DNA of 64,000 nucleotides from Lytechinus pictus (lineage: Eukaryota). Below the pieces are notes generated by a model that saw nothing but the letters and a program-made list of their open reading frames with translations, ran no database searches and had not been told where the DNA came from. Positions 37,401-62,419 of the stretch are shown in pieces. Each line of letters opens with the position of its first letter. The first letter of the stretch is position 1. Location of the stretch: NCBI RefSeq assembly GCF_037042905.1, contig NC_087251.1, forward strand, positions 41,914,001-41,978,000, in the 5' to 3' direction. The translations under genes were made by a program, and so were the position numbers.

Positions 37401-40400
37401 TATCTATAAATTCATTGATTTCTTGACAATTTGGTGTGATCTCCTTTGTTTACAAAAGACATTTTGCAAATTTCCTGAAGAAAAAAATTATGACACTGAT
37501 GGATTTCCAGAGTTACGATTGATTGGATCAATCGTAAGTCTTCGTAAGACCCTGGTCTCAAATTAATGTATATTCCATAGTATAATGTATATGTATCCAA
37601 TGTATATTGCATATAAGCAATTTACAGGTTTACAGAGTTTTCTTCTATTTGAACCAATTTTGTAGCTCTCTACTAAGATAACATGTGGGTCGAACACCAT
37701 AACATGGGGGGGGGGGAGGAAACACTGAGCAATGTTGAAACTTGGGAGGGGTGATGTGATGCATGCTTTACCTAGCAAAAAAAAGCTGACAAAAATTTTA
37801 CCTGAAAATGGTTAGGAGAAGTGTATTGATGTGTAGTATTGAACTAAAATAATAAAAATGACAAATTATAATAAAATTTTGTTTACAGTGGAAAATTAAT
37901 TTTGCAGTGACAGATGATAAGTATTTACTATCAAGTAAAACAAAAATCACTGGTTGAGTATATGAACAATTTTTACAAGGATAATATGGCGCTAAATAAA
38001 CAGTATAATATGTTAATGCGATGGAAAGCTGAGTTGCTGAATTCCTACAAGAGTTGTTTCAAAAGAAAGCGATAATTGCAAAATAACAAGAAGAACCAAG
38101 ACAAAGAAGAACAAATTACTGGAGTAACACATGGATCAATGGTGTATCTTAGGAATAATATAAAGTTGAATCATCTTACCTTTATCCCACCTTACATCGC
38201 CCTCTGACACCGACTCGGCAAAAGGAGGTGTTTCTACCACTTTAACTTCATCATCTGAAACACAAAATAAAACAAAACTAGCACATCAATGATGTGGAGC
38301 TCATCGGGCATCTCGCAACGAAATTTAACACATTTAATTTTAGCCAAGTTGACACTGTAGTGAATTACATTGGTGACATAAATTGAGGATATAGAATTGA
38401 AATTGATGAAAAAATGACATAGAAGCATTTTTGTGATCTATGAATAAATTTCATATAAATTAAGCATAAATAATTTTCTAGTCAAAATTTCTCAACTCTG
38501 TGTAGAACCTTGGTAAACCTCATGTACAATGTAGCTCTCAGATGGAACAAAAATAATCAAAATCAATCAAGAAATAAAAAAGTATTTTTGTGAGTTTTTA
38601 AAAAATATGAATAAATGAGTATATTTAATGAGTTTCAAAATTCTGTGTTGAAATTTTGTATCACCACCTCGAGCTATCATATAAAGCAAACAAAATTAAA
38701 ATTGATTTACAAATGAAGAAGAAAAAACATTTTTGTGATATATGAATAAATTTTGCATAAATTAGCATAAATAATTTCCTAGAAAAAAATTCAAAATTTA
38801 GTGTACAAGTTTGGTGAACCTCATGCAGCTCTACCAGATGGAAGAAAAAAAAATCAAAATTGGTCAACAAATAAAGAAGAGGCATTTTCTGTGATTTATG
38901 TATAAATTTTGCATGAATTATCGTAAATAATTTTCTACTGAAAATTTCAAAATTCTGTGTAGAAGTTTAGTGACCCTCATGAAGTTCTACCAGATGGAAG
39001 AAAAATAAAAATCGATCAACAATCAAAGAAGGAGCATTTTATGTTAATTTTTAAAAATATGCATAAATTAGCATATTTAAAGGACAAGTCCACCCCAACA
39101 AAAAGTTGATTTAATAAAAAAGAGAAAAATCCAACAAGCATAACACTAAAAATTTCATCAAAATCGGATGTAAAATAAGAAAGTTATGACATTATAAAGT
39201 TTCGCTTAATTTCACAAAAAAGTTATATGCACATCCTGGTTGGTATGCAAATGAGGAGACTGATGACGTCATCCACTCACTATTTCTTTCGTATTTTATT
39301 ATATGAAATATTAAATATTCTAATTTTCTCCTCATTGTCAAGTGATACAACAATTAATTCCTCCCTGAACATGTGGAATTAGCATTGTTTAATAATATAT
39401 GGTTCAGTCAAGTTGGTCCTTTTTGTCAAATCTATAAAAAATGAAATATTGTATAATTCAAACAATAAAAAACAAAAGAAATAGTGAGTGATGGACATCA
39501 TCGACTGACTCACCTAGTTGTACATATCACTGTTTTGTGAAAAATAAGCGAAATTTTAAAATGTCATAACTTTCTGATTTTACATCTGATTTTGATGAAA
39601 TTTTCAGCACTATGTTAGTTTGATTTTTCTCTATTTATTCAAGTTAGCATTTTCCTGGGGTGGACTTGACCTTTAATGAGTTTCAAAATTCTGTGTAGAA
39701 GTTTTGAATCCCCCATCTAATGCTATCATATAAAGCAAACATAATTGAAATCAGACTTGAAATTATGAAGAAGAAGCATTTTGAAATTCAGTCAACAAAT
39801 AAAGAGGCATTTTCTGTGATTTATGAATTTTGCATTAATTAGCATAAATAATTTTCTACTCCAAATTTAAAAATTCTGTGTAGAAGTTTGGTGAACCTCA
39901 TGAAGCTCTACCAGATGGAAGAAAAAAAAAATCAAAATCGGTCAACGAATAAAGAAGAAGCATTTTATGTGAATTTTTAAAAATATGCATAAATTAATTT
40001 CGCATAACTAAGCATTAAAATTGTTCTAGTCAAAATTTCAAAATTCTGTGTAGAAGTTTGGTGAACCTCATGAAGCTCTACCAGATGGAAGCAAAAAAAT
40101 CAAAATCGGTCAACAAATAAGCATTTTTTGTGAATTTTGAAAAATGTGCATAAATTAGCATATTTAAGAGTTTCAAAATTCTGTGTAAAAGTTTAGAATC
40201 CCCCACCAAGTGCTATCATATAAAGCAAACAGAATTGAAATCGGACTTGAAATGGCAAAGAAGAAGCATTTTGAAATTGTGGACGGACGACAGACGCCAC
40301 GGCATAAGCTCATCTGGCCCTTCGGGCCGGATGAGCTAAAAATGACTATTCTATCCCTTCTAAACCAAGAACATATTTAATGATTATTAGGAAGGTGTTC

Positions 40401-43400: not shown

Positions 43401-46400
43401 TATAAAATGCATAAATTTCAAATTTTCAATTGTTTGTGACGACTAATTTTTGTTTTCTTTTTAGGAAGGTGTGTGAAATGATTTGTCTATTGATATACTG
43501 AATGTCACAACAAAACTATTTTCAATTTTCGAAGTAAATTACATTTCATTGATTTGTTATACCATTCGATATTTAGGAAAGCTGCTCGCATATGACGTCA
43601 CAAATCAAATAACTGAAATTCTATTTAATTTTGTATTCTTGGGTGGATTTTTCTCAAACCTTTTACAATATTTTTATTTTTTTTTCTATCATTTTTACAA
43701 CAAACTTTCTTTGTGAATTTTCCCTTTAATAGGGCATTATATTCTTGGACATTTCTTTTTTTTATAGTCATCCTTCCCCTTTCTTTCCTTTTCTTCATCT
43801 TTCCATCGCTACTTGAAAAATCAAATAGGGGTGGTCACCTAACTGCCCCCTCGCAGTACTATTCCCGACTACTAAGGACACCTAAATTTTGATTGGGTGA
43901 TAAGCAAGTTCTATTTTCTTACCTATATTCAACTTGATGTTCCTTGATATGCATACCTACAAAGATATGGATAAATACAAATAATTACTATTTCATAATA
44001 AAAACGAAAAGAGGTTTTAAATCTTTACTACACATTAAGCAAAAATAAAGATCTGTTTTTACCCAAAAAAATCAGCAACAAAAATTACTCACCACTTACA
44101 AAAATATGTAAGACAAATAAATATGGATATATCGAGAGTCAATATTTTGCTAAAGTTAATTAGAATATAAAATATATGTAGGGAAATAGAAAAGGTATTC
44201 CAGAGATTCAAATCTAGTTCTGTCCCTGCCAAAGATAAATGGTTATTTATTATTTTTTTCATTGTATTGATAATTAGACAGTAATATGAATGAGTATGGC
44301 CTTTATTTAGAAATAATACAACATACTGAACTGGAAATGACACAAACCACTATTTTGTTCAGAATCTTATCTATCCGATCATACTTACTCCCTGCTCCCC
44401 GTACGATTGATACTATTTAGGATATGATTACATGTACCCGTCAATATTTCCCTATTTTGTGACAGTTGATGACCATATAGAGTTACCCAAATAAAGGGAA
44501 AATTATCAGAAATGTCACTTGAAATCAATTTTTTTCATGAGAGAATCCATCTTGGAATCTGACATCTAACCTGAGTTGAAAATAGACGGGAGCAACGAGC
44601 GATTCCGCCCTCGTGTGCTTTGGAATCGCTCTCGCAACTGCCTAAAACTGCTATAGTACTGAGCGACTCCCAACATGAAGATCGCTCCCGTCAGCGCCCG
44701 TCCAGTCTCCCACTTATGACTGCATAGTAGTCAGACAGCCAGGCCAGCGAAACAGCAGTTTTTACTTTCATGGATCGTCGAGTTCTGACGTGTAACTGAG
44801 TGGATTTTTTAGAATCACGGGCACGGCGCTTCAGAAAAATGCGTATTGATTTTCAAACTCTCGATATCCTGGGTAGTGGGTACTATTTTTCAAAACGCTG
44901 CGCGGCACCAGCAGGTCATGCTGTACCTTTGATAGAAAATTTTTCCCTTTTTATTGGATTAATTTTGAAGATACCATCCTAAATTTGCAAGAAAATAAGA
45001 TCGTAAACTCTGAAGAAAATCAATTTTTTTTTTCTGAGTACTTTTCTGCGACTACACTTTTGAAATCTGAACTAATTCACTTGGTGCTCTGGATATTTGG
45101 CACAGATCCTGGAATTTTAAGACCGAAATTAGGATTTTCAGTGGGGATTTTTGGTGAGTAAGTCAGTTGGTAGCGATTCGGCATGCAAGTTGAATTTTCC
45201 GACTCATCATCACCTGTGTAATTCCCCTAATTTACCTCCATCCACGTCACTCTGTTGTTCACTAGAGCTAGAAACTTCATCATCATTCTCTTCATCTTCA
45301 AAATCATCAATTTGAAAATCCAAATCTAGATAAACTTCTGGGTTTTCTTTCATTTCGTGATCGAAGTATTCAGTGACAGTGTGGAGAAACGTACCCTCGC
45401 AACAGGTTTTGCATGCAAGTGGAGCTCGACATGGGAGAGCCAATCACGTCTCTCGTACACTCATGCATGTCATCAAAAATCCCCAATTTCGCGGACATAA
45501 TTCTGCGTGTTTGAAGCATTCAGAGAGAGAACTGTATACTATCAAATAACTGAGTTTCATCGGTCTCCATGATAAATGATTTACACCATCGTGTTCTTAT
45601 TTTCTCCTTTAATTTGATATATAATTCTCCATTTTTAGGATTTGCAATATATTTCTACTTTAAAAATAAGCTAGTGTGTATATATATATAAATGTGTGAA
45701 ATTATACGTGTACAACAGCTTTGGCAACTCTTTTATTTAAATATTGTGTGAAAGAAATGGATGAAGAGAAATATGATAGGCGTAGCTTAAATCAAGGTTC
45801 CCCAGAGCTATCTACCCTTTGGAAAATTTGGTGATGCCGAAAAAATGTCTCTGCCGGGAATCGAACCCGGGCCCCCAGCTTTGAACGCCGGTGCCTTAAC
45901 CCGTCTCTGTGGTCTAGTGGTTAAGGCACTGTTCAAAGCTGGGGGCCCGGGTTTGATTCCCGGCAGAGACATTTTTTCGGCATCACCAAATTTTCCAAAG
46001 GGTAGATAGCTCTGGGGAACCTTGATTTAAGCTACGCATACCATATTTCTCTTCATCTATTTCTTTCACACAATATATATATATATAAAACGAGAGGCGA
46101 GAGCTTTACAACATAGTGTATACTTTGCTTCATCCTTGATTCTACTCTACTCTTCACACATATATATATTAAGAAATACATATAAATAGGCCTATGACAT
46201 GCAGAATAAAATGAGATTAGATAAATCATGAAAACTTTTTTATTTGATTTGATTTGATTTGATTTATTGTTTTCTTCTGCATCCATAACATTCGTATAAT
46301 ACATTTTTCATAACATAATAAACATAATATGCTAGCATTTTTGGCATGAATCATAAATAAAGAGTATTAAAAAGATAATTTCAGACAAAAATGATTAACT

Positions 46401-49400
46401 ATATGATATTCACAGTATATTGATGCAGTATAGGACCTATTATTCTTCATGGTCTCCCTCTAACCTCTCTGTAATTTTATTTTGTCTGAAAATTAAGCAG
46501 CTGGTGGATATTTAATTCATATAAATGATATATATTCCTTTTTTTAATAAAACAAATATTATTCAAAAATTTGCATCTTCAATTAATTTCATCGCAGATT
46601 ACTACTCTCACAGGTCACCTTCCTCATTTCATTTCTTTTTTTTTTACTTATTTTTCTCAATACTTTTATCTATTCTCACATTTTTTGTTCTATTTAATTC
46701 ATTATTTTGTCTTTGCAGTATTATAAAATCTTGGGACCAGGCCACTAATAAAACTTCAGAATGTCCGGCCATGATCCTGAATTACATGCAATAATATTAT
46801 GTATCTGTGGAGAGAAAAATAAAACACAGCTCGCTTAATATCTGAATAAAATCATGATTGAGATAATTATTTATGAAACGTATCCTATTCTTGAAAATTG
46901 ATTGCATTACTAAAATATACAAATATGCCTCTGGCAGTCTCGCCTGCATTACGCAATTCGATATAGCAGCAGTGCTGCCTCTGAAAACAGCTAATGAATA
47001 ATTATTCATAGAAGAAAACACTAATATAATAATAAAATATGTCCATTCACCCGAAATGAACTTTGACCATGATCATATGACCTACTTGATTACCCTTATG
47101 TCGATGTTTCATGAGCTAGATCCATAATCTTTCTAAGTTATGATGTCAATTCAACACATACTCCCAAAATGCCAGAGGTCATTAACCTTTAAATGACCTT
47201 TGATCTTGGCCATGCTCCTGAAAGGGTATTCAGAGATACATTGCTGCTCTTATGTCCAAGTTTCATGAACTAGATCCATAAACTTTTAAAGTTATGATGA
47301 CAATTCCTCAAATACCCCTAACATGGCTAAAGTTTGTTGACCCCAAGTGACCTTTGACCTTGGTCATGTGAACTGAAACTCGCATATGATATTCAGGGAT
47401 ACATGGTTGCTCTTATGTCGAAGTTTCATGAACTAGATCCATAAACTTTTAAAGTTATGACAATCCCTAAACAAGTGGAATGCCTCTGGCCGTCTCACCT
47501 GCATCACGCGATTCAATATAGCAGCAGTGCTGATTTTGAAAACTACTATAACTCGCACAAGATGTTCAGTGATACTTGGTTACTCTTATTTCCACGTTTT
47601 ATGAACTAGACCCATACACTTATAGAGATATGATGGTAATTCAACAAATACCCCCAACGTGGCCAAAGTTCATTGACCTTACATGACCTTTGACCTTGAT
47701 CATGTGACCTGAAACTCGCACAGGATGTTCAGTGATACTTGATTACTCTTATGTCCAAGTTTCAAGAGAAAGATCCATCAACTTTCCAAGTTATGATGGT
47801 AATTCAACAGATACCCCCATTATGGCCAAAGTTCATTGACCTTTGACCTTGGTCATGTGACCTAAAATGCGCAAAGGATGTTCAGTGATACTTCATTACT
47901 CTTATGTCCAAGTTTTATGAACTAGACCAACACACTTTCAAAGTTATGGCGGTAATTCAACAAATACCCCAATTTGACCAAAGTTCATTGACCCTAAATG
48001 ACCTTTGACCTTGATCATGTGACCTGAAACTTGCACAGGATGTTCAGTAATACTTGATTACTATTATGTCCAAGTTTCATGAATCAGATCCATAAACTTT
48101 TAAAGTTATGATGGTAAATCTACAGATACCCCCAATTCGGCCAAAGTTCATTGACCCTAAATGACCATTGACCTTGGTCATGTGACGTGAAACTCATGCA
48201 GGATGTTCAGTGTTACTTGATTAACCTTATGTATAAGTTTCATGAACTAGGTCCATATATTTTCTAAGTTATGATGACATTTCAAAAACTTAACCTTAGG
48301 TTAAGATTTTGATGTTGATTCCCCCAACATGGTCTAAGTTCATTGACCCTAAATGACCATTGACCATGGTCATGTGACATGAAACTCAGGCAGGATGTTC
48401 AGTAATACTTGATTAACCTTATGGCCAAGTTTCATGAACTAGGTCCATATACTTTCTAAGTTATGCTGTCATTTCAAAAACTTAACCTCAGGTTAAGATT
48501 TGGTGTTGACGCCGCCGCCGCCGTCGCCGTCGGAAAAGCGGCGCCTATAGTCTCACTCTGCTATGCAGGTGAGACAAAAAACCCTAACATGGCCAAAGTT
48601 TGTTGACCCTAAGTGACCTTTGACCTTAATCATGTGACCTGAAACTCAGGCAGGATCTCCAGTGATACATTATTACCCTAATGTCTCAGTTTCATGAACT
48701 AGGTCCATATACTTTCGAAGTTATGACATTTAAAAAACTTAACCTTGGTTAAGATTTCGATATTGATTCCCCCAACATGGTCTAAGTTCATTGACCCTAA
48801 ATGACCTTTGACCTTGGTCATGTGACCTGAAACTCAGGCAGGATGTTCAGTAATACTTGATTACCCTTATGTCCAACTTTCATGAACTAGGTCCATATAC
48901 TTTCCAGGTTATGATGACCTTGGTTAAGATTTCAATGTTGACGACGCCGCCGTTGCCGTCGGAAAAGTGGCGCCTATAGTCTCGCTCTGCTATGCAGGCG
49001 AGACAATAACTAGAATGAAGTAATCAAATCTACTGCAGAGTTTGTTTTATTAATCATCATTTTATTAATTCCTTGGAATGCCGGGACCAGTTTCATCACT
49101 GCGTGGCGGACATACACTGTCCCTGGGCCGAGAGTGCCTGCAGTCCGTGCCAGAGGTCCGTGCATACAAGCGCACTTTGCACAGTCATAGCTGCACAGCT
49201 CAGAATACGCACAGACAGTGCGCAAAAAGGAAACAAAATTGCACTTGTCTTCATTAAATTTGTGGTGATTCTTGCAGCTGTAGAAAGCACATCTATCTCC
49301 ACCACCCATAATTAAGAAGAAAAGTGATGTTAGTTTCTGAAACAAATATGACAAGACGTTTACTTGAAGAAAGCAAAAAGTTGGCTGCGGGCGTTGATCG

Positions 49401-52400
49401 TATTTTAATACACTATGGAAATCGTACACTTTATTGTCGGCTGCTTGCGTTCGCATGATCGCATCCAGACAATAGCGGCACTATTGCTCCCTTTTTGATC
49501 CCATGATCCTTTGCGTGAATCTATTTGCGATAAGGTCTATTTGTATTTCACGGACGAGTCCTGGGCTCCAGCCCGTGAGCTCCCTGGGTTTAGTTTTAGA
49601 CCAAAAGCTTCGATCTCTGTTATGTTGGCTGTTCCGCTGAACTCCGTTGGCTCCACACACCAAATACAGAGACAGAAATTCTAGTTCGATCTGTACAGGG
49701 ACTCAATGGCCATATTGTTATTTATTAAGTTCGGATAAAACAGGGAAGAAAGGTTGCACAACAGCCGAAGTCACTGTTTTTTCCCCTTTTAAGTTTATTT
49801 TTCCCCGTTTTGGTGCATTTCAGATCAATATGGAATAATAATCTTTATTTTGGTACAGTTCCTTTTAAGGCCCGGCCACCACGCCCACGGCCCGGCCAGT
49901 CGTACTTGCACTCAACTTGCAGGCTAGGGCCCTAGGTAGATATCACAGCCGGTTTGACTTTACGACACTCTCGTATCTGTCACCGTGTTAAATTGGTGAG
50001 ATCAATAACATAATTTCTACAAACACTTTTTTTTAAATAACAAGTGGAATGCCTCTGGCCGTCTCACCTGCATCACGCGATTCAATATAGCAGCAGTGCT
50101 GATTTTGAAAACTACTATAACTCGCACAAGATGTTCAGTGATACTTGGTTACTCTTATTTCCACGTTTTATGAACTAGACCAATACACTTATAGAGATAT
50201 GATGGCAATTCAACAAATACCCCCAACGTGGCCAAAGTTCTTTGACCTTACATGACCTTTGACCTTGATCATGTGACCTGAAACTCGCACAGGATGTTCA
50301 GTGATACTTGATTACTATTATGTCCAAGTTTTATGAACTAGACCAACACACTTTCAAAGTTATGGCGGTAATTCAACAAATACCCCAATTTGACCAAAGT
50401 TCATTGACCCTAAATGACCTTTGACCTTGATCATGTGACCTGAAACTTGCACAGGACGTTCAGTAATACTTGATTACTATTATGTCCAAGTTTCATGAAT
50501 CAGATCCATAAACTTTCAAAGTTATGATGGTAATTCAACAGATACCCCCAATTCGGCCAAAGTTCATTGACCCTAAATGACCTTTGACCTTGGTCATGTG
50601 ACGTGAAACTCATGCAGGATGTTCAGTGATACTTGATTAACCTTATGTATAAGTTTCATGAACTAGGTCCATATATTTTCTAAGTTATGATGACATTTCA
50701 AAAACTTAACCTTAGGTTAAGATTTTGATGTTGATTCCCCCAACATGGTCTAAGTTCATTGACCCTAAATGACCTTTGACCTTGGTCATGTGACATGAAA
50801 CTCAGGCAGGATGTTCAGTAATACTTGATTAACCTTATGGCCAAGTTTCATGAACTAGGTCCATATACTTTCTAAGTTATGCTGTCATTTCAAAAACTTA
50901 ACCTCAGGTTAAGATTTGGTGTTGACGCCGCCGCCGCCGTCGGAAAAGCGGCGCCTATAGTCTCACTCTGCTATGCAGGTGAGACAAAAATGACCTACAC
51001 GGTAAAATAATAGTATGATATACAAAATTATAACATTTAAAACTTACATTGTGTACTTTGAGGTCCATAAAAATCCATTTTACAGAGACGATATGGTCAC
51101 TCGTACATCCCCGAAAAAGTTGCCATCTTGAAAATATCGAGTTTCGCGAGATTAGACTTTCGGGTTTTATTTTCTCTCTCATATCATCGCCATTCGATGA
51201 AACATCAAATTTCTTTCTTTGCGAGCATGATTTCGAATTTGAAAAGTTCTTTTGATGCTGGAAATATGAAACGGGTGAGCAAAATTGTGTTTTTTAAAGT
51301 GATTTTTTGTTTGCATAATCCCTGATTATCAATTTTTGTTGGGCCTTTATTTATCTTTTATTTCTCAGGCGACGTTTTCTTGACACCGATATATGAATTA
51401 ATATATCGGTGAAAGCAGGTTTTTTCTTCGGGCGATGGTCATTTTCCGACTTCACAAATGTGTCGCATATCGCCCTCAAAGCCTAAACGCAAGGCGATGT
51501 CGGACTAATGAGTCATAATTTTTCTCGAGTTTGAGCGAGGTGAACTGGCATTAGTAATGACCCTTTTGAAATTTTTGTTTGATATAAATAACAATTCGTA
51601 CATCTAATGAATAACAAATGTTGCATTCAACTTGTGCAGTGAGGTGAATGCATGGATCGAGCTCTGTGTGTCTCTCGCTAGTGCAGTGGTCACCGGTACG
51701 GTAGAGGGGGGGCACATTTTCGTTTTAAGTTTTAACAGCATTTTTACATTACATATTTTAATTGTGCCTCTCAAAGGGGGGGGGGCACACTTTTGTTTTA
51801 AGTTTTAACAGCATTTTTACATTTTTAATGTAAAATGCTGCCTTTACACTTGTACCCTCCCCCCTTTTGAAAGTCACAGCATATGTTTTTAATAGGGATA
51901 TATTTTTTTTTTTTGCTTTTCAAATTTTACCTGGACGAAATGAAATGCATTTTTCGGTGAATTTTAAAAAAATTTTTGCTTGTCAAATTTTCTTTCCAAA
52001 AGGAAAATGTGCCCCCCCCCCCTTAGAAAATCCTGGATACGCCCCTGCACATGACCATGTAAAAATTCTCAATCTTATTCTTAATAGTACAATTATCAGA
52101 CACAGATCCAAGGATGGAGGAACGGCCTGGGCATGCACCCCCCACCCCCAAGATCGACATTAGGGAGAAGCTCAGAAAGAGCTGTTGACCTGCTCTTGAC
52201 CCTTTCAACAATTTCTTTTTTTTTTACTTCTCCCCCCTTCATGCAGGTATATCCTGGACCCGCCTCTACTTTGCAGCCTTTGAACAGAAAAGCTTACACA
52301 GCTTGTAATACACAGTCATACACATGACCTCACTTCATATCTTTTGCTCTCCCCCCCTCCTAATAAGCCTGAATCTCCCCACTTCTCCCCACTTGCAGCA

Positions 52401-55400
52401 ATTCAGCCACTCTCGTGATCACATGACACATGCACACACAGCATATACACATATCATTCAGCATTGCTAGAGTCATAAAGGTACGTGTATAGTGCAACTT
52501 GCAAATGAGTGTTGGGAGTAGTGTGAGCCAAAACATTTTTTTTGCCAAATTTCTTTCTCGACCAAAGATCAAGATATGGCAACAAATATTTACAAGATGG
52601 TAGAAAAATGACATTAACTACTTGATTGTAGAGCTAAACTTCACTGAATATATATATTTACATGTATATACTTCATTTTATATGAACTAATTATATGCTA
52701 ATTTATTCATAAAATCGTATATCCTGTTCTAATTCAGTAATTAAAGCTTGTAGAGTGTTAATTTTTGCTGTACATATTCTTCATGGCATTTCTAACAACT
52801 TTTCTTAAAAAACAACTGAAACCAAAAACGTTTTCTTACACATTTTTTCGCTTTTGAAAATTAAATCACGTATTTCAGCATTTTGGGGGCTGACATGCAC
52901 TACTAAATGTTGCATTATTTTAAAACCACATACCCGAGCATCGTAAATTTGGACTTAAATGTTGTGCAAGACTTGAGGGAAAATATTCTTGGAATGACGT
53001 GGAGCAGTTTTCAAACATGAAATGTTTATCGCAAAAAAATTTGAGGCATCACATTATGCGGCAGAATGGGTTTTAAAAATTTGATCTTTAATTACCCATA
53101 ACTCCTTAAAGTTGAATTAAGAAGGGGGTGAGTTTCCATAAATATAGGTTCTACATACAATATATAGTATATATAAGTTGTTCAAACACATAGCATGTCA
53201 CAATAATCCTCTGCCTTCTCGATATTTTGCTTTGAAAGTCTATGAAATTAGCCACCTGTCAGAGCCCGAGAGACGAGTGTACAGAAAAGTCACTCGGAGT
53301 GTGACGTCACCGGGGGGAATTTAGTATAAGAGGTGCCTGAATGTCATACAGAAATGCTAAGCAGAGAGAGAAAGATATTTTACAATTTTTTTTCAAAGCA
53401 ACTCAAATCAAACAAATAGGACTGATATGTACAAATCTTTACTTTCCCTGTATAAAAAACAGTATGAATAACCACCATGAACTCTTCAATCATGATGTAA
53501 GATAGCAAACAGTGAGTTATTGAATGATATTTTCACTATTTCTCATTTATTTTATCACGATGTTCAATCAAGTGAGTAGCTGGAAAGTAATTCCGGCGGC
53601 TAGCTCAGCGCGCGCTGAACGCATAATACTAGTACACACAACACCCAGGCATTGAGTGTACTGTTATGGTCTGGTATGTCGACTTAGTTCATGGCCGTGC
53701 AGCGATCCCCTGGCGTTTTTTCTTCTTTTCTTTTGTCTTTGACTCCACTTTTATATCCTCTGGATCATTTCCACTCATAGCTCATTCCACAGAACAATCT
53801 TGAACCAAACGTATAGTATTCTTTCTCGGCCTTCTGAGTTGTTTTCTATATTACTTACGCTAGGGGTCACCGTCACACATACAAACGCAATTCGGAAGTG
53901 AGTTGAAGACAGAAAGATATATAGTAATTAGTATACATCTCTATGGTTGAAGACAACAAGAACGGTACGGTAGCTCGACAGCTAGCTGCGCCGGAGCGGG
54001 CGGCCGGTCGGCACAAAGCAATTCCGCAACCAACTGTGTTTTTTTGCAAGAGCCGCGTCACACGCGGATAAATATGTCATGATAACACGTCTGCTACGTT
54101 ATCGACTGGTGAGAAGATCTCGATCAAATTTCATATTATTCACCTTGAAATTATTCCTTTAGGGTCTATGGTATCATTCTGAGGGAATTCACATATTTGG
54201 AATAATAGTACGGCCACAAATATTTTAATCATTTCCTCTTTGCAAGTTCTATGGCTCGCAGATACAACTTCAACTGCAGTTATTCCATATGAAGGAGTAC
54301 GTGCATAGTACACAAAACGGCACTGCCTTGTTTACGACACCGGGACCGAATACCCCCCGGTGACGTCACACTCAAAGAACACCCGTCTCGGTAGGCATTG
54401 CAGGAGCGAACTCAGGGAAAATGGGTAGGGATAAATCGTTCAAATTCACTATTTTGAAAAAAGAAAATGGGGGGTCGAATCACCTATTAGTGTTTGGGGG
54501 GTTGTAAGGTTGCTATTAATGTAAATATCTCAATATTTGGAATCGTCTTCTTAATTCAACTTTAACGAATGGCTGAATTTTCTTAATATTTTTGTTGTTG
54601 CATTTCTAATGCAATGACCTTTCATTTGATGTATCATACGCCAATCTTATAATCTTAAGTTTTGGGTAATATACAACCAAAAAATTACTTTTTTTCTTTC
54701 CAGGGCTCTTTTTGGAGAAACTTATACATTTTCCAGGGCTACTTTTTCATTTTCCAGGGCTCTTTTTCCACTTTCCAGGGCTACAATTTCTGGAGCTATT
54801 TCGCGGCTTTTTTGCGTTTGTGTGGGGGTGTGTGTGTGTGTGTGTGCGCCACATTGAAGGGATGCTGGTCAGCAGTGCAGGGCTGCTCTGCTGCAGGCTC
54901 TGCTTTAACAAGATGTACTGTACATGCGGTGCGTTCAACGCTAGCGGGCGTGTATATTTTGCTTATTACATGACGTCATCCAGCCACTGCCTAGAGCCAA
55001 TTTATGAATGAAAATATAGTAAGCATGCGCAGTGCAAGCCTTCCATAGCCCCACACAGTATTCCACCAAAACAAGTGTGCAATACTCTATCACCTCGTAC
55101 CAAAATCGACCTAGAATTTCACTTTCCTATAATTTATATGAATTATGAAAGGTATTCTCGGAGGATCTATTTTCTCACCGATACCGAACAGGTAAGCGAA
55201 TTTCGATTACTTCTTGATTTTCGGTCAAAATCTTACGAATTAGCGTTGATATAGCATCGTGTTCGTTGGAGTCTGTAGAGTCTATCGCAACGTGTACAAA
55301 GTCAATTGATTTCCGGGTTTCGGAGCGTCGCGTGAATATGCATGAAATTGCCGAGTCTCGATAATTTTCGATCGATACTGGAGCGATCCGATCACGAACC

Positions 55401-58400
55401 AAGACCATTTCCCGCGTAGACAATGTGACCGGATATCGTTATCGCTATCGATACTTTCGCACGCAGTCCGAAGGAATTATTTTGGCGACCACGTAGTCAT
55501 GACGTGATCTGCGCGATTGGCCAATCAGCAGTCTCCGATTCGCTGAGCCGAGACGGTCTATTCGTTGTACACAGTCTATGGACAATTTGCCACTGTGAAA
55601 TATACAGTGTTGACGGGGGCGATTATGAGTTTTGCAGTCGCCCTCGTGTGAATGTTTTTAGCCCTTTTCCGGGGCTCTTTTTGGACTTTCCGGGGCGAAT
55701 TCGCCCGCCGCCCCCGTGTAATTTTTTGGTTGGTAATATAGCTACCCTAGGGCTAGGCGCTGCATAGACCAAAAGCTTCGGTCTCTGTTATGTTGGTTGT
55801 TCCGCTGAACTCCGTTGGCTCCACTCACCAAATACAGAGACCAAAGTTCTTGCTCGATCTGTACAGGGACTCAATGGCCATATGTTTATGTATTAAGTTC
55901 GGATAAAACAGGGAAGTGAAGTTGCGCGACAGCCGAAGTAGTCATTGTTTTTTCCCCCTTTTAAGTTTATTTTTCCCTGTTTTGGTGCATTTCAGGCCAA
56001 AACGGAATAATGATCTTTATTTTGGTAGTTCTTTTTATAAATCTTTATGAAAGAAAGACAAAAATTGATGAGCCCCGTCGGGGGAATTTGCATTGTTTAC
56101 CCCCTAATGGTGGCTGCACGATAGCGAGCCGTCTGTGCACGAGGAGAAATTTTTAAAAAATAAAATTTTCAAAAACAAACGGCTGCCAGCTGTCTAGGCG
56201 CTGCATAGACAGGAATAACCGTCGTTTCTGGGGATTTATTTAACAATTTCAGACATTTTACTATCATCCCCATTCACCGACGGTAGTGTGTTAGTGCAAG
56301 CCTGCATGTGTAATCAGAACCACCAATTCGGGCGACCGGGTTTTGTCTAGATTTTTTTTTTTTTTAATTCTAAATGACATTATATTATCTTGAACGAAGG
56401 CCCACTATTTTCGTTAGACTCTAATCTTTCTTTTGATACTATACCTAGTGCAAGAAAATATCTAAAATATACGTTACCGATGATTTATTCCTTATTTTTT
56501 TAATTTTTCTGCCGGAGAGGAAAAAATGGCAGCCGTGTGTTGCTGCCCTCTACGTTCAACGAGTTGTTCTTTTATCAAAGCTTTCCGATTAGAATTTTCG
56601 ATATCCTGGCCAATTTATGCGAGCGACAAGTTCCAAATGCGCGCACATCTACAAGCGCAAAGCAGCGGCACAAATCGCGATATATAGCGACTGGTAAATA
56701 CGTCTGTATGGATGATGACGTCATCCAAGATGGCAACTTACATTGACCAACAAAAGGATCGAAGATGACTATGTTTTTATCATCATTTGAAAGGAATTAG
56801 CAGTAACTCCGATCTATAAGGTACAATATTTCTTAATTCTATATATATTTTTGTAAATTTGATGTCATATCTTTTTTATAATGTGACATTTTATAAATTT
56901 ATGTATGATGGGGTGTCCAAACTTTGCGGACTTTTAAAAATATTCATGAGGCTTAAATTTGTTCACAAAATATTCATAATCTATACAAAACCAATTCAAT
57001 AAATAGTTACATTGACGGCAAGATCCTAAACTGTAAAATCATTGACGAAAATGTGAAGTAGGTCAAGGGGTTTTGGCGGTATCGCGATCTCAAAATTTAA
57101 TTCCGATCGACGAATGAGCGCTGTGCTGGAAAACCGTTCTGATAAAGTGTGACCCAACTTCGCGGACCAAAGTTTTTGTGGAGATTTAAACAAAAACTCA
57201 AGCTCAAAAGGTGAGATATTTATATCAGATTGACGACAAAATGCTATAGAATCAGTCAGTACCACATTTAACTCACATTTTTAAAGATATCTGCTTACAA
57301 AATGCTGATATCGTAATGCTTGTTGAGAATATTATCAGATTTCGTTGGAACGGGCGCTAACGGTGACAAATTTTGTCGATCTTTTCATGAATACTGAACT
57401 CATCCTAAAGAAACTTACACCAAAAGGTAATTTTAGTAGGGTGTCTAAAGCCACACTGAAAAGTGTCAGCATAAGACAGGCTGATTTAGGGGAAAATGTG
57501 GCACATTTTTTTCGGGAAGTTCAGGCTACTAGAAAAACGTGATCTGAATTGATTGTTAACTTGTGTTTGGCATGTATGGAAAGAGAAAATTCAGGGGCTT
57601 CTTTTGACAGTAAGGACAAGTTTATATGATCATTTGAATTAAGGATTTAGAGATAAATTGCAAACCCTTATTTTTGTGTGTGTTGAGATTGCCATTTCCC
57701 CATGCGTTTTCTATGGGAAAATGAAATTTTTGTTTTGCACATTTTTTTCACTTTGTCGCAATTTTTCATTGTGATCTGGTTTCCAAATCTTTATAAAAAT
57801 CATACCATCAGAAAGAGCATAAAAAATCCTATTGGACTCTTTATGGACAAGTTTTTGGCATTAATAATAAATTTATAACAGTGAACAGCTCTCGGAAGCT
57901 AAAAATTTGGATTTGTGTGTGTCCATTTCTTAACTACACAGTCTATGGCAGAGAAATGCTGAAAATTGACCTAATTTCATTCTTCTTTTTTGTAGCCAAT
58001 AATCAGATTTTTTTCAAAAATGTTACATTTCTGTCAGTCTGAAGGTCATTTCTCTTCAAATTCACAAAGAAAATGTGATATTTTCTTGAAATAAGAAAAA
58101 TAATATTTTTCTCCAGACACCCTAATTTTAGGTCGCTTTTCAAGTTGATGATGTAAGATTTTAAAGATATTGGCTAGTTTTTTAGATAATGACCGTCCGC
58201 GAAGTATGGACACGCGAAGTTTGAACTCGGTCACTCACTGCCATACAAAAAAACGATCTGAAAATCGGGTTTCCGCCGAATGTTAGATCTAACGTTACTG
58301 CTATTAGTATTACATTGCCTGTACGTACGGGTTAACAACTCTTCAGTCTATGTATTGGTGAGTGGAGCCAACGCAGTTCAGCGGAACAACCAAAATACAG

Positions 58401-58708
58401 AGTCAGAGACTGAAGCAGTTTTGCCTTTTGGTCTAGGGCTAGGCCTAGGCGCTGCAGCTGCACTGCGAAGAAATGCTACACAACCCGCACACACAAAACT
58501 TGATCAATGTCACAACTCACATCCGTCATCTCATCGCATGATTACAGTAAAATATCACAAGATACATGAATTGAAAACAGTAGGAGTGTAATATTTCTCA
58601 GGAAGAAATAATTATTTTTTCTACACCTACCTTTTCTAATGTAGAAGAAACTCCTCTTAGATGAAATTGAGGAATTTTCCTCAGTAGATTAGCTGACAGC
58701 ATCGCCAT
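10302..58708 (-). CDS. DLST: Dihydrolipoyllysine-residue succinyltransferase (OGDC E2), mitochondrial precursor; whole 15-exon gene span, spliced CDS 1428 nt / 475 aa
   Basis: Fifteen exons joined by hand with GT-AG boundaries and matching phases give one ORF: presequence, lipoyl domain ([12 protein letters not shown]...IETDK), Pro/Ala linker and catalytic domain ([34 protein letters not shown]). Confidence 0.96.
10858..11428. repeat. Degenerate (GAT)n microsatellite in DLST intron 14
   Basis: About 570 bp of gat/ggt/aat triplets with a repeated ggtgataatggtaataatcagt subunit. Confidence 0.95.
11442..11609 (-). CDS. DLST: DLST exon 14 ([56 protein letters not shown])
   Basis: Catalytic-domain motifs; 168 nt. 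Confidence 0.98.
11870..12320. repeat. Diverged tandem duplication, period about 200 bp, DLST intron 13
   Basis: cccacttcatgc...aacaataatcaattca at about 11946 and 12145. Confidence 0.75.
12465..12548 (-). CDS. DLST: DLST exon 13 ([28 protein letters not shown])
   Basis: Conserved GLVVPVLRN; 84 nt. Confidence 0.97.
13137..13204 (-). CDS. DLST: DLST exon 12 ([23 protein letters not shown])
   Basis: Conserved [14 protein letters not shown]; 68 nt. Confidence 0.97.
14225..14355 (-). CDS. DLST: DLST exon 11 ([43 protein letters not shown])
   Basis: [15 protein letters not shown] motif; 131 nt. Confidence 0.97.
14601..16615. mobile_element. hAT-like non-autonomous element with nested MITEs
   Basis: cagggttg ... 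caaccctg TIRs, 8-bp TSD attgttta on both sides, subterminal aaaacgtttt repeats. Confidence 0.85.
15493..16043. mobile_element. TTAA-flanked Kolobok-like MITE nested in hAT element
   Basis: ttaaaggtcaggtccacccc / ggggtggactgtcctttaa. Confidence 0.8.
16670..16815 (-). mobile_element. tRNA-derived SINE fragment
   Basis: Reverse-oriented tRNA-like head (gacgctctactaac) plus SINE body. Confidence 0.55.
17345..17657. mobile_element. Harbinger-type MITE
   Basis: cccgtattctgaagtc / gactccagaatacggg TIRs. Confidence 0.75.
17700..17920 (-). mobile_element. Possible decayed DIRS-like reverse transcriptase fragment
   Basis: Frameshifted FEALVYSL...LKVFNKV resembles the RT motif FxALPFGLxxAPxVFTKV. Confidence 0.3.
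18294..18610. mobile_element. Two adjacent small Harbinger-type MITEs
   Basis: Right ends gatgaaacactcccc and ttatgaaaccggacc; the first resembles 16909-17078. Confidence 0.55.
18634..18731 (-). CDS. DLST: DLST exon 10 ([33 protein letters not shown])
   Basis: Highly conserved E2o segment; 98 nt. Confidence 0.97.
18740..19312. mobile_element. Decayed TTAA-type MITE
   Basis: cccctttaa right end; shares aaaacagttatatgcacat with the 899-1501 family. Confidence 0.6.
19965..20041 (-). CDS. DLST: DLST exon 9 ([25 protein letters not shown])
   Basis: RSEQR leads into VKMSRMR; tttctacag| and AGG|gtaag; 77 nt. Confidence 0.92.
20184..20395 (+). mobile_element. tRNA-derived SINE
   Basis: Decayed A box, B box gggttcaaatccc, body tgctgcactcaacccaggtg...aatgggtac. 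Confidence 0.7.
22900..27250 (+). mobile_element. Possible ancient DIRS-like retroelement relic (RT, RNase H and tyrosine recombinase traces) interrupted by MITEs
   Basis: Collinear decayed motifs: GRL..AW.IG.D (about 22943), LG.... (about 23561), KQIMVET...GG (about 24040), FRKWC (about 25020), FY-KD (about 27196); many stops and frameshifts. Confidence 0.35.
27690..27945 (-). mobile_element. tRNA-derived SINE
   Basis: ggattcgaac B box in reverse orientation and a typical SINE body. Confidence 0.6.
28021..28188 (-). CDS. DLST: DLST exon 8, Pro/Ala-rich linker ([24 protein letters not shown]...ITSKP)
   Basis: Typical E2 flexible linker; phase 1 to 1; 168 nt. Confidence 0.92.
29675..29783 (-). 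CDS. DLST: DLST exon 7 ([36 protein letters not shown])
   Basis: C-terminal half of lipoyl domain; GT-AG bounded; 109 nt. Confidence 0.95.
30150..31190 (-). mobile_element. Possible decayed DIRS-like fragment (FPP-motif region then recombinase N-terminus)
   Basis: [23 protein letters not shown] resembles DIRS YAFPPxxLIxxxLxKI...LIAP; KW trace downstream. Confidence 0.3.
31396..31451 (-). CDS. DLST: DLST exon 6 ([19 protein letters not shown]), contains lipoyl-lysine
   Basis: ETDK lipoylation motif; tttgcag| and AAG|gtatt; 56 nt. Confidence 0.96.
35190..35600 (+). mobile_element. Decayed DIRS-like reverse transcriptase N-terminal region
   Basis: [16 protein letters not shown], GVYSRx[11 protein letters not shown] occur in the order expected for DIRS RT (PVGGRL, GYxLPF, EI, GFYSRLF, SIxxxLxxGDW). 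Confidence 0.45.
38180..38254 (-). CDS. DLST: DLST exon 5 ([24 protein letters not shown])
   Basis: Start of lipoyl domain; tttcag| and G|gtaag; 75 nt. Confidence 0.95.
38272..40342. mobile_element. Helentron-associated (HINE-like) element with internal tandem repeats of about 155 bp
   Basis: Subterminal agctcatc motif near one end; hairpin agctcatctggcccttcgggccggatgagct plus A run at the other; repeated gcataaattagcata units. Confidence 0.7.
39077..39676. mobile_element. TTAA-flanked Kolobok-like MITE nested in HINE-like element
   Basis: ttaaaggacaagtccacccc / ggggtggacttgacctttaa; closely similar to 899-1501. Confidence 0.85.
40604..40686 (-). CDS. DLST: DLST exon 4 ([27 protein letters not shown]), 83 nt
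   Basis: Pyrimidine tract plus aag| acceptor, A|gtaagt donor, phase 2 to 1; KGIHTS resembles a presequence cleavage motif. Confidence 0.75.
40687..41130. repeat. Three diverged tandem copies (about 150-190 bp) overlapping the exon 4 acceptor region
   Basis: agaagttg(g/t)ttgagcagaga at about 40693, 40880 and 41026. Confidence 0.8.
41830..42130 (+). mobile_element. Possible decayed DIRS-like tyrosine recombinase fragment
   Basis: [13 protein letters not shown] resembles PFEPLxxxxLxxL; weak. Confidence 0.25.
42366..42429 (-). CDS. DLST: DLST exon 3 ([22 protein letters not shown]), 64 nt
   Basis: ttttatttttcaag| acceptor, AG|gtata donor, phase 1 to 2, open frame bridging exons 2 and 4. Confidence 0.7.
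43046..43729. mobile_element. TTAA-flanked Kolobok-like MITE hosting a SINE insertion
   Basis: ttaaaggagaagttcac / gtgaattttccctttaa. Confidence 0.8.
43200..43387 (-). mobile_element. SINE-like element with 7SL (Alu-domain)-like head, B box, Meta-like body and (CA)n tail
   Basis: Minus strand reads GGGCATTGTGGCATGTGCCTGTAATCCAAGCT...GGTTCGAGCCC...GTCTTTCAGATGGTGACGTTAAAGG...CACACAC. Confidence 0.7.
43923..43956 (-). CDS. DLST: DLST exon 2 ([11 protein letters not shown]), 34 nt
   Basis: ctttgtag| acceptor, G|gtaag donor, phase 0 to 1, open frame. Confidence 0.75.
44480..45730 (-). mobile_element. Possible internally deleted DNA transposon with acidic N-terminal ORF remnant (45210-45443)
   Basis: CpG-rich interior, short imperfect inverted ends gagttacccaaa / tttggcaactc, acidic [11 protein letters not shown] peptide; superfamily unclear. 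Confidence 0.3.
45741..46076. repeat. 336-bp palindromic element with two divergent tRNA-like copies
   Basis: Arms of about 160 bp are near-perfect reverse complements. Confidence 0.92.
45903..45971 (+). pseudogene. tRNA-like sequence (pseudo-tRNA or SINE head; consensus anticodon UCA)
   Basis: Acceptor GTCTCTG/CAGAGAC, A box TGGTCTAGTGG, T arm CCGGG/CCCGG, T6 terminator; anticodon stem partly deleted in this copy. Confidence 0.7.
46919..49006 (+). mobile_element. HINE-like element with tgacctttgacc tandem repeats (outer element)
   Basis: Subterminal IR gtctcgcctgcat / atgcaggcgagac; repeat units of about 155-190 bp. Confidence 0.8.
47471..48580 (+). mobile_element. HINE-like element nested in a related copy
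   Basis: acaagtggaatgcctctgg start, IR gtctcacctgcat / atgcaggtgagac, A-run end. Confidence 0.85.
49596..49862 (+). repeat. About 265-bp segment repeated directly at 55765-56030 and partly inverted at 58345-58436
   Basis: tagaccaaaagcttcg...ccgctgaactccgttggctccac shared by the copies. Confidence 0.85.
50040..50990 (+). mobile_element. HINE-like element, near-identical to 47471-48580 but about one unit shorter
   Basis: Same termini and internal units. Confidence 0.85.
53106..54565. mobile_element. TTAA-flanked Kolobok-like deletion derivative (1.46 kb)
   Basis: TIR ttaaagttgaattaagaag / cttcttaattcaactttaa; internal IR gagtgtgacgtcaccgggggg; possible broken THAP-like start on the minus strand near 53690-53780. 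Confidence 0.75.
54662..55749. mobile_element. hAT-like non-autonomous element
   Basis: caaccaaaaaattac / gtaattttttggttg inverted ends, gctacccta terminus, subterminal tttcc(a/g)gggc repeats. Confidence 0.65.
58631..58708 (-). CDS. DLST: DLST exon 1 ([26 protein letters not shown]), mitochondrial targeting peptide start
   Basis: ATG in gaaATGG context, Arg/Ser/Leu-rich peptide, phase-0 donor AAG|gtagg matching exon 2; assigned by phase and composition, not homology. Confidence 0.75.
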
Positions 58709-59463: not shown

Positions 59464-59999
59464 CAGTGGCCGCGGAAAGGTTTTCAAAGTGGGGGGGGGG
59501 CCGGGGCTGACCATGCAAAAAATCACAATCGTATGGTCATTTTTACGCTTTTGTACATGGTTTTGGAAAAAAGGGGGGGGAGGGGCTGAAGCCCCCCCCC
59601 CCGCTTATGGCGCGCCGTTTGACCAATAATTCAGATAAACACTGTTTATCGCCGATAAACAGTGTTTATCGCCGAAAAACACTGTTTATCGAGCGATAAA
59701 CACTGTTTATCAAGCGATAAACACTGTTTATCGAGAGAAACTATGTTTATCGACTGAAAAACACAGTTTCTCTCGATAAACAGTGTTTATCGCTTGATAA
59801 ACATTGTTTATCGCCGATAAACAGTGTTTTTCGGCGATAAACACTGTTTATCGAGAGAAACTGTGTTTTTCAGTCGATAAACATAGTTTCTCTCGGTAAA
59901 CAGTGTTTATCGCTTGATAAACAGTGTTTTTCGGCGATAAACACTGTTTATCTGAATTATTGGTCAAACGGCGCGCCATACCCGCTTCCGCGGCCCCTG
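59464..59999. mobile_element. Small TIR element (cagtggccgcggaa / ttccgcggcccctg) with 5-bp TSD agaag
   Basis: TIRs and TSD read directly. Confidence 0.75.
59606..59980. mobile_element. TA-flanked foldback MITE made of cgataaaca(c/g)tgtttatcg palindromic units
   Basis: Perfect TIRs tggcgcgccgtttgaccaataattcagataaaca, TA at both ends, nested in 59464-59999. Confidence 0.88.
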
Positions 60000-61035
60000 A
60001 GAAGGGCAGGGGCGAAGCAAATAAATGCTAATCCAGTGGTCACTTTTTGCTTTGTTTCTAATGTATAGACCCTGCTAGCTAGGTAGGCCTATACTATAGA
60101 CTGTAATCTGTATGGAAGCTGGCCTGATACTGAAAGTGATACGTCATAAGATTAAGAATGATATTACTTAGTTAGACTCTCGACTATATTAAGTTATAAC
60201 CGTGATAACGGCTCCTGGCCCAGACAAATATGAGACAGACAGACCCAAACACTAGTGTCGTCTCACTCTCAGAGTCAGAGTATAGATCTAATATCATCAG
60301 TGACAGCATGCACTTGGTCTTGATGAAAATGAAATGAGCAAAAAACATTTTTTTTTTAATTGAGAGTGAGGCCAGTGTAACTAGGGAGTAGGGCCTAGGG
60401 GTTTACATTTTTTGTGGGGGGGGGGGGCAAAGTGAGCGAAGATATTGCTGATCCTGTTAGAAATGGAAATTTAATTTTGTGAAAGAATTTTACATAGACC
60501 CTTACTTTAGTATTGAGAAAGTTTATTTTTACTCCTAAGTTTCATTTTTTCCCTGTTATTTATTTATTTATTTTTTTTTTTGGGGGGGGGCATGGAACTT
60601 AGGGGATCAATTAAAGGCCCCCCCATCTATACAGAAATGAATAGGATCTAGTTCCTCAATGTTAGAAGGAGGATGAATTTCGGACATGCCTCCAGAAAAA
60701 CTTATACTTGGGGAAAAATGTAAATCAAAGAATAAGATTAAAAATGAAATTAGATATGAGAAAAATTGAGTAGACAAAAGTATGAGGCATTTAATGTCGA
60801 AGATGCTAAAATTTGTCAAGAAGTGTAAAAAAAAAGATAAATAAGATGGAAAAAAGACAAGAAAGAGTGAAAAAAGTGTACAAATGCCCCTATAATTTAA
60901 TATATGAGCTTCCACCCTGCAATGACTAAGCAAATGCAATCTATTATTAGAGCATCGGTGGTAGTATTTGTCTCATCCACCAGCACTAACATCTAGCCAC
61001 CTAACTTGCCAACAAAACAATTACCGAGCATTTTC

Positions 61036-62339: not shown

Positions 62340-62419
62340 CTACTTTTGAGTTCTCAACACCAAGTGTCTACTGAGGAGACTACTATAGGGCATGAAACAG
62401 GCCCAAAACGAACAACAAC

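What the first reader, a model, noticed from the sequence alone, without database searches (positions are those of the whole stretch)
45741..46076. Palindromic element whose arms reconstruct a tRNA cloverleaf with a UCA (opal-reading) anticodon
Seen: two divergent copies form a hairpin with arms of about 160 bp. The plus copy has the 5' half and A box but a shortened anticodon stem and a C>T change in the T loop. The minus copy lacks the first ~17 nt but has an intact anticodon arm and B box. The merged consensus is GTCTCTG TG GTCT AGTGGTTA AGGC A CCGGC GTTCAAA GCTGG GGGC CCGGG TTCGATT CCCGG CAGAGAC A TTTTTT. All four stems pair, the anticodon is TCA and a Pol III terminator follows at once. 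It lacks the long variable arm of tRNA-Sec. Inference: this could be a mobile foldback unit spreading suppressor-like tRNA genes or pseudogenes. It also places a long dsRNA hairpin in DLST pre-mRNA.
Basis: partly seen in the sequence, partly recalled or inferred. Interest (0 to 1): 0.7.

Follow-up and report, generated by a model that had tools for sequence, protein, structure and literature searches.

The report
Inverted insertion of tRNA-bearing retroelement
The hairpin is two broken, head-to-head pieces of an abundant mobile repeat that carries a well-formed tRNA look-alike with a stop-codon-reading anticodon and is heavily transcribed, but neither piece here can make that tRNA and nothing shows that the family decodes stop codons.

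Summary
The palindrome is real (arms 160 and 157 nt, 152 matches) and lies in intron 1 of DLST. It is not tRNA-Sec. Both local copies are broken. The insertion (45693-46075) lies between two identical 14-nt TA-rich repeats, has a 49-nt extension at one end only, and is joined at a 5-nt inverted microrepeat. This is the published shape of Penelope-like element insertions, so the hairpin is most likely a by-product of insertion, not a foldback unit. In one rRNA-depleted library the family made up 0.55% of letters read, about 1,500:1 on the tRNA-sense strand. That RNA includes an upstream leader and runs through the T6, with no listed pile of ends between tRNA and tail. It is therefore a longer repeat RNA, not a tRNA transcript, although tRNA-sized products would be lost in such a library. 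Best reading: a non-autonomous, ribozyme-free Penelope-type parasite with a tRNA module. Suppression is unshown and unlikely.

The parts
45679..45692 (+). Left copy of a 14-nt direct repeat, (TA)6AA: candidate target-site duplication
   Evidence: Identical to 46076-46089; the 14-mer occurs only at these two places in the window. Low complexity, so moderate evidence.
45693..45741 (-). 49-nt 3' extension of the family, present on the left arm only
   Evidence: Covered by family RNA at depth 12,984-23,058; absent from the right arm.
45742..45845 (-). Family body downstream of the tRNA module, left arm, starting with T6 at 45845-45840
45846..45901 (-). 5'-truncated tRNA-like module: intact anticodon arm (TCA at 45884-45882), T arm and B box; no A box or 5' acceptor strand
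45897..45923 (.). Junction: 5-nt inverted microrepeat (45897-45901 / 45919-45923) around a 17-nt spacer in the right arm's sense; 45897-45902 is the last 6 nt of the family leader
   Evidence: Sequence; loose ends before 45897 in all four runs (45896 in X15).
45903..45971 (+). tRNA-like module with A box, 3-nt deletion in the anticodon stem and C>T in the B box
   Evidence: Rfam tRNA 44.9 bits; ARAGORN mis-calls Leu(caa) because of the deletion; differences.
45972..46075 (+). T6 (45972-45977) and family body, right arm, ending in the TA tract with 3 nt of microhomology (46074-46076)
46076..46089 (+). Right copy of the 14-nt direct repeat
43957..58630 (-). Host context: first intron of DLST (approximate limits; a small intervening exon is not excluded)
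   Evidence: tblastn of homologues P0005 (58708 start) and P0003 (43956-43924); exon motifs.

Best explanation
The locus is one insertion of a short, non-coding retroelement that carries a tRNA-shaped module inside a longer unit and is copied by the reverse transcriptase and nuclease of a Penelope-like element (PLE) that cuts TA microsatellites. Shown: multi-copy family, leader + tRNA + body in one RNA, one-strand transcription, 14-nt direct repeat in a TA tract, unequal inverted arms, shared rare variants in both arms. Inferred: a staggered cut gave two primers; each copied the same source RNA (tandem, circular, or two molecules from one source), one from the unit's end and one internally at a 3-nt TA match; the two cDNA ends met at the 5-nt complementary patch between leader and D loop. 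Both halves have since decayed. The tRNA module most likely serves the element (internal promoter boxes or an RNA-processing/stability fold), and UCA is a hitch-hiking anticodon. The PLE partner is inferred from the insertion shape, not found here.
For: Published PLE insertions have an inverted 5'-truncated copy at the 5' end, a 30-40-bp tail at one end only and (TA)n targets (PMC8557442 passages; PMC8969392 passage); this locus has all three, with a 49-nt extension. The spacer is in the right arm's sense while the left arm is the longer one, which a simple foldback from one arm cannot give; two-primer models can (PMC2837659 passages). Overlap in L1 twin priming has a median of 12 bp (PMC12016303 passage), so a 157-nt overlap needs a repeated template. 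Both arms share letters at 45771, 45772, 45827 where about 99% of X1 depth and of X23 reads differ, and 3 extra bases at 45748 that about half of X1 depth and two thirds of X23 reads lack. All 5 arm differences involve a family C (4 C>T, 2 of them at CpG). Three other X1 contigs show head-to-head joints with other breakpoints. Earlier AI notes describe 404-407-nt tRNA-bearing units in TA tracts in this genome: leads, not support.
Against: No PLE sequence or shared 3' end with a PLE was found here; no whole genome was held. The direct repeat is low-complexity and the empty site was not seen. The extension (49 nt) is longer than the published 30-40. The unit's ends lie outside the laid stretch or in a masked tract, so tandem structure was not seen by me. 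The spacer could have been flipped later by recombination between the arms, which would rescue a DNA foldback. A fully paired cloverleaf only 53/72 identical to the nearest of 95 fetched tRNA-like sequences is more conservation than a promoter needs.
Confidence: 0.68

Rival explanations
1. A tRNA-derived SINE (SURF1-like, with the tRNA region some way in from the 5' end) inserted once and was later duplicated in inverted form by DNA foldback at the 5-nt microrepeat.
For: tRNA module, body and simple-repeat end; abundant one-strand RNA; sea-urchin tRNA SINEs exist (PMC3747384 table passage); shared variants in both arms fit a later duplication. That SURF1 has its tRNA region about 60 nt from the 5' end is recalled; the paper was not held.
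Against: T6 directly after the tRNA is kept and read through; RNA starts are spread up to about 95 nt upstream with at most 3% near the tRNA start; SURF1 (SP-4) is listed as a CORE SINE (PMC4758252 passage) and I saw no reason to call this body CORE (not tested by alignment); unequal arms inside one direct repeat.
Confidence: 0.12
2. A MITE or foldback DNA element whose inverted arms each carry the tRNA and which moves as the palindrome.
For: Long inverted arms, TA context; other head-to-head joints in X1; one earlier AI note reads a similar locus this way (e1-7787458).
Against: The two ends are not mirror images (49-nt extension on one side); a 14-nt, not 2-nt, direct repeat; the family normally continues into the leader; summed X1 depth falls from about 1e6 in the arm to 3,105 at 45930; other joints have different breakpoints.
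Confidence: 0.07
3. Two truncated solo LTRs of a Helenus-type TRIM (non-autonomous LTR element with a tRNA-like sequence inside the LTR).
For: Helenus has an internal tRNA-like sequence, often followed by a T run, and explains all tRNA-Sup-CTA calls in two rust fungi (PMC10886601); the left end reads CA with AATAAA about 40 nt upstream.
Against: Animal Helenus makes 4-bp duplications, here 14; no primer-binding site in the visible sense strand; no echinoderm family listed; most Helenus tRNA parts are predicted non-functional, this one folds fully; 0 hits for 7 element-specific motifs in the supplement, and only generic D- or T-arm matches for 3 others tried (one had 0).
Confidence: 0.06
4. The family is a source of real opal-suppressor tRNA: RNase P and RNase Z release the 72-nt module, which is charged and reads UGA; the repeat spreads it.
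For: 21 of 21 pairs, nearly all invariant tRNA bases, ARAGORN 120; TCA is the majority anticodon in DNA and RNA; very abundant precursor; some TA-targeting PLEs (Naiads of clams and spiders) have in-frame UGA codons (PMC8557442).
Against: G at position 32 (normally a pyrimidine: established knowledge); reads join leader to tRNA (20,767) and tRNA to body with no listed end piles; by eye, the last 15 leader bases can pair with the D arm and block the cloverleaf; those Naiad UGAs are explained by SECIS elements; an abundant general suppressor should be harmful (inference).
Confidence: 0.07

Closest known systems
Penelope-like elements and their non-autonomous derivatives (Naiad, Chlamys; Craig et al. 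2021, PMC8557442, passages read)
   Same: Inverted 5'-truncated copy, one-sided extension, (TA)n target, no hammerhead seen.
   Different: Carries a complete tRNA-shaped module; no coding sequence; no partner element identified here; extension 49 nt rather than 30-40.
Animal non-LTR retrozymes (PMC7229834 passages; bioRxiv 10.64898/2026.07.22.740005 abstract, first fifth and passages)
   Same: Short non-coding repeat, very abundant RNA, proposed dependence on PLEs.
   Different: No hammerhead core in the 650 nt scanned; tRNA module instead; circular RNA and tandem units not shown by me.
Helenus / TRIMp3 (Kojima 2024, PMC10886601; parts 1-4 and 6 of 6, supplement part 10 of 11 and two searches)
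   Same: tRNA-like sequence inside a mobile unit; gives false suppressor-tRNA calls.
   Different: 14-nt rather than 4-bp duplication; no primer site seen; full cloverleaf kept; no echinoderm family listed.
tRNA-derived SINEs (SINE2), including sea-urchin SURF1/SP-4 (PMC3531059, PMC3747384, PMC4758252 passages; the 1988 paper not seen)
   Same: tRNA-derived part, many copies, short, transcribed.
   Different: tRNA part is internal, followed by a retained T6 that is read through; transcripts do not start at the tRNA.
Eukaryotic tRNA-Sec
   Same: UCA anticodon.
   Different: 72 nt, 7/5 stems, 4-nt variable region, A73; tRNA-Sec has a long variable arm, 9/4 stems and G73 (established knowledge).

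Membership tests
Non-autonomous PLE derivative | Inverted 5'-truncated copy at the 5' end | tested here: met
   against PMC8557442.
Non-autonomous PLE derivative | Short extension at one end only (30-40 bp) | tested here: inconclusive
   One-sided extension present but 49 nt.
Non-autonomous PLE derivative | Insertion in a (TA)n microsatellite with a target duplication | tested here: met
   14-nt direct repeat (TA)6AA at both ends, unique in the window; empty site not seen.
Non-autonomous PLE derivative | 3' end shared with an autonomous PLE; head-to-tail units | not testable with these tools
   No genome held; stated only in earlier AI notes.
Non-LTR retrozyme | Type I hammerhead in each unit | tested here: inconclusive
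   No CTGANGA core on either strand of 45601-46250 and no Rfam hammerhead hit, but part of the unit is not in the window.
Non-LTR retrozyme | Circular monomer RNA | not testable with these tools
   No end piles listed in the visible part fits circles or long transcripts alike.
Helenus TRIM | tRNA-like sequence inside the repeat unit | tested here: met
   Leader of at least 60 nt upstream.
Helenus TRIM | 4-bp target duplication in animals | tested here: not met
   14-nt direct repeat against PMC10886601.
Helenus TRIM | Two LTRs with primer site and polypurine tract | tested here: inconclusive
   None seen in the visible part; ends masked or outside the stretch.
SINE2 | At least 60% identity to a tRNA over 60 nt; many copies | tested here: met
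   53/72 to Glu/Gly tRNAs; 5,683 contigs laid in X1, part of them on the neighbouring repeat; definition in PMC3531059.
SINE2 | tRNA part is the 5'-terminal head and transcription start | tested here: not met
   20,767 reads carry leader upstream; at most 485 of about 14,300 placed sense mates start within 5 nt of the tRNA start.
MITE / foldback element | Fixed terminal inverted repeats and a shared structure among copies | tested here: not met
   Ends differ by 49 nt; other joints differ.
tRNA-Sec | Long variable arm, 9/4 stems, G73 | tested here: not met
   ARAGORN drawing.
Functional suppressor tRNA | Full cloverleaf with UCA anticodon (family form) | tested here: met
   G32 is atypical. 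Not met by either local copy.
Functional suppressor tRNA | Mature, CCA-ended, charged RNA that reads UGA | not testable with these tools
   Library of 151-nt reads does not retain tRNA-size RNA (inference); none seen.

The most novel reading that the evidence does not exclude
The family is a retrozyme-like parasite of Penelope-type elements in which a tRNA fold replaces the hammerhead: host tRNA-processing enzymes cut long tandem transcripts into unit-length, probably circular RNAs that reach about 0.5% of non-ribosomal RNA, while a leader-D-arm helix switches the fold on and off. A side product could be a mature UCA tRNA that raises UGA read-through, possibly for a partner element with in-frame UGA codons.
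Probability: 0.2. Interest if true: 0.8.

Novelty: new variant of a known kind. Interest (0 to 1): 0.48.

Why it matters
For annotation: these copies will be called SeC or suppressor tRNA genes (ARAGORN does so) and should be masked as a repeat. For retroelement biology: a tRNA-bearing, ribozyme-free parasite of Penelope-like elements did not turn up in my ten paper searches, and this locus records the insertion reaction (duplication, one-sided extension, 5-nt joint, 157-nt overlap), which bears on how PLEs make inverted copies, a step described as still undefined (PMC8557442). For cell biology: an RNA at 0.55% of a library with an intact UCA cloverleaf makes the question of a natural animal opal suppressor directly testable in a laboratory model, if the host is the sea urchin that earlier notes name.

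Tried and rejected
No whole genome was held, so copy number and ends were not measured. Exact-pattern scans found 0 family matches in viral, metagenome and prokaryote contigs. One search listed no holder on record as RNA; the RNA evidence comes from laying X23 and X15. Four element strings gave 0 papers; 'sea urchin + SINE + tRNA-like + Lytechinus + transcribed' gave 0; searches listed no paper on this family. The 1988 SURF1 paper was not held and the SINEBase supplement could not be read; either could hold this family. bioRxiv supplements were closed. Rfam microRNA hits are below gathering score and reflect the hairpin. ARAGORN's Leu(caa) call is an artefact of the 3-nt deletion. A 60-nt leader (first guess) was dropped: read ends imply starts up to about 95 nt upstream. 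The host species was not determined: names were cut, the cluster look-up could not be made, the Atlas gave nothing useful. Editing of this locus's own hairpin could not be judged, since family reads swamp it (746 of 769 reads at 45930 carry the family letter). Sequence look-ups in earlier findings found no look-alikes.

Full report
Observation. The palindrome is real. The region folds at -296 kcal/mol with z = -35.8. The arms are 45742-45901 on the minus strand and 45919-46075 on the plus strand, with 152 matches, 5 substitutions and a 3-nt gap, so it is not a perfect-copy assembly artefact (inference). Rfam and ARAGORN each find one tRNA in the window, the plus copy. That copy has lost 3 nt of the anticodon stem and the invariant C of the T loop; the minus copy lacks the first 16 tRNA bases. 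Joined by coordinates, the two give a 72-nt cloverleaf with 21 of 21 pairs, anticodon TCA, ARAGORN score 120, a 4-nt variable region and A73. It is not tRNA-Sec. Its best identity to 95 distinct fetched tRNA-like sequences was 53/72, with Glu and Gly tied.

Context. DLST runs on the minus strand. Homologues place exon 1 at 58708 and the next exon at 43956-43924, so the element is in intron 1, about 1.7 kb before that exon. One database model (P0003) instead starts at 45295, 400 nt downstream of the element in gene sense. That the host is a sea urchin rests on earlier AI notes and on my recall of its repeats, not on a result of my own.

The family. I laid four runs on 45300-45945, which holds the left arm, the junction and the start of the right arm. 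In DNA run X1, 5,683 contigs were laid (some on a neighbouring repeat), with summed depth near 1e6 over the arm against 22-50 for the single long contigs listed. This shows many copies but is no copy number. Where this locus folds back, family sequence continues into a leader: loose ends before 45897 in 42 X1 contigs, one X14 contig (54 nt) and 20,767 X23 reads. Opposite-strand joints at 45901/45918 (13,920 reads) and 45890/45929 (8,092 reads) and loose ends behind 45929 show that the intact head with TCA is the common form. No difference row at the anticodon is among the 40 shown of 149, so minority anticodons are not excluded. None of the 24 listed pieces (of 6,128) crosses this locus's junction. 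Three X1 contigs show head-to-head joints with other breakpoints (45768, 45835, 45863).

The RNA. In X23 (raw, rRNA-depleted, labelled organism B; whether the window is organism A or B was not determined) 66,309 of 8,710,588 records were laid; letters on the element are 0.55% of those read. At 45718-45761 the strand ratio is about 1,500:1. The direction is set by an internal control: in the neighbouring repeat, A>G appears only in one read class (45365, 45368, 45389) and T>C only in the other (45311, 45426), and these changes are nearly absent from X1 DNA, as expected for A-to-I editing in a library whose first mate is antisense (inference; DNA and RNA are not from one animal). The RNA is thus tRNA-sense. 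Depth does not fall at the T6 (32,269 across it, 35,072 downstream), and the only begin/end pile listed is at the stretch's edge. Read ends imply starts spread up to about 95 nt upstream, with at most 485 of about 14,300 near the tRNA's first base (a rough estimate that assumes full-length reads and misses reads too short to place). The captured RNA is therefore a longer unit holding leader, tRNA and body. A mature 75-nt product would not be kept in such a library, so it is not excluded. By eye, the last 15 leader bases in the loose-end consensus can form about 14 pairs with the D arm, an alternative to the cloverleaf; I did not compute this.

Anatomy of the insertion. An identical 14-mer, (TA)6AA, stands at 45679-45692 and 46076-46089 and nowhere else in the window. 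Inside it, the left arm carries 49 nt of family sequence that the right arm lacks. The arms meet at a 5-nt inverted microrepeat around a 17-nt spacer that has the right arm's orientation. Both arms share letters at 45771, 45772 and 45827 that about 99% of family depth does not, so they come from one source. Their 5 differences all involve a family C, four being C>T, which reads as neutral decay.

Mechanism. Published PLE insertions often have an inverted 5'-truncated copy, a 30-40-bp extension at one end, and (TA)n targets (PMC8557442 passages; PMC8969392 passage). This locus fits. A foldback from the right arm cannot give a longer left arm, and one from the left arm gives the opposite spacer orientation unless flipped later. 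Two primers from a staggered cut, each copying the same source and joined at the 5-nt patch, give the observed structure (twin or dual priming, PMC2837659 passages). L1 twin-priming overlaps have a median of 12 bp (PMC12016303 passage), so a 157-nt overlap points to a tandem or circular template or two RNAs. All of this paragraph beyond the anatomy is inference; no PLE partner was found.

Earlier notes. I turned to PLEs only after AI notes on this genome described 404-407-nt tRNA-bearing units in TA tracts, some with UCA, some head-to-head. I could not match them by sequence. I tested their pattern at this locus (target, duplication, inverted copy) but not unit length, tandem arrays or copy number.

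Comparison. It works like a non-autonomous PLE derivative or a retrozyme without a ribozyme (PMC7229834 passages; bioRxiv 10.64898/2026.07.22.740005). It fails tested features of Helenus (4-bp duplication), SINE2 (tRNA as 5' head), MITEs (fixed symmetric ends) and tRNA-Sec. Helenus shows that mobile tRNA-like modules can produce hundreds of false suppressor calls (PMC10886601). Against a purely passive module stands the complete pairing of a sequence so far from ordinary tRNAs. Naiad PLEs of clams and spiders have in-frame UGA codons, attributed to selenocysteine with SECIS elements; no link to this family is shown.

Verdict. The locus itself is a dead, inverted insertion that puts a 383-nt hairpin (-288 kcal/mol) in DLST pre-mRNA, with no evidence of function. 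The family is the interesting object: a new variant of a known kind, not found in my ten literature searches, with an unusually abundant RNA. Interest 0.48.

Noticed in passing
window 45300-45665: A second multi-copy repeat left of the insertion; RNA runs X23 and X15 show strand-specific A>G/T>C changes nearly absent from DNA run X1, consistent with A-to-I editing. A>G plus T>C make up 54 of 122 changed places in X23 and 30 of 74 in X15, against 7 of 34 in X1.
   Followed up: partly
window 45295-45233 (minus): Database model P0003 of DLST begins with 21 residues encoded here, beside the neighbouring repeat, while related proteins begin at 58708: an alternative or mis-predicted first exon.
   Followed up: no
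window 46153-46169: The right flank repeats the family's 3' end motif before another TA tract (16 of 17 nt; 14 of 1000 shuffles scored as well): possibly an older related end.
   Followed up: partly
window 46925-51000 and 61030-62340: Arrays of about 160-nt units, with an inverted copy of the array at 61-62 kb.
   Followed up: no
window 899-1505, 15492-16023, 39077-39676: Three copies of a roughly 600-nt self-inverted repeat, MITE-like.
   Followed up: no
window 59634-59952: A 320-nt palindromic array of 40-nt units just upstream of DLST exon 1.
   Followed up: no
L001, L003, L004, L005 and about 30 similar loci: A multi-copy tRNA-derived SINE-like head with a broken acceptor stem in two metagenome sets; most are not called by ARAGORN, a contrast to the fully paired module here.
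   Followed up: no
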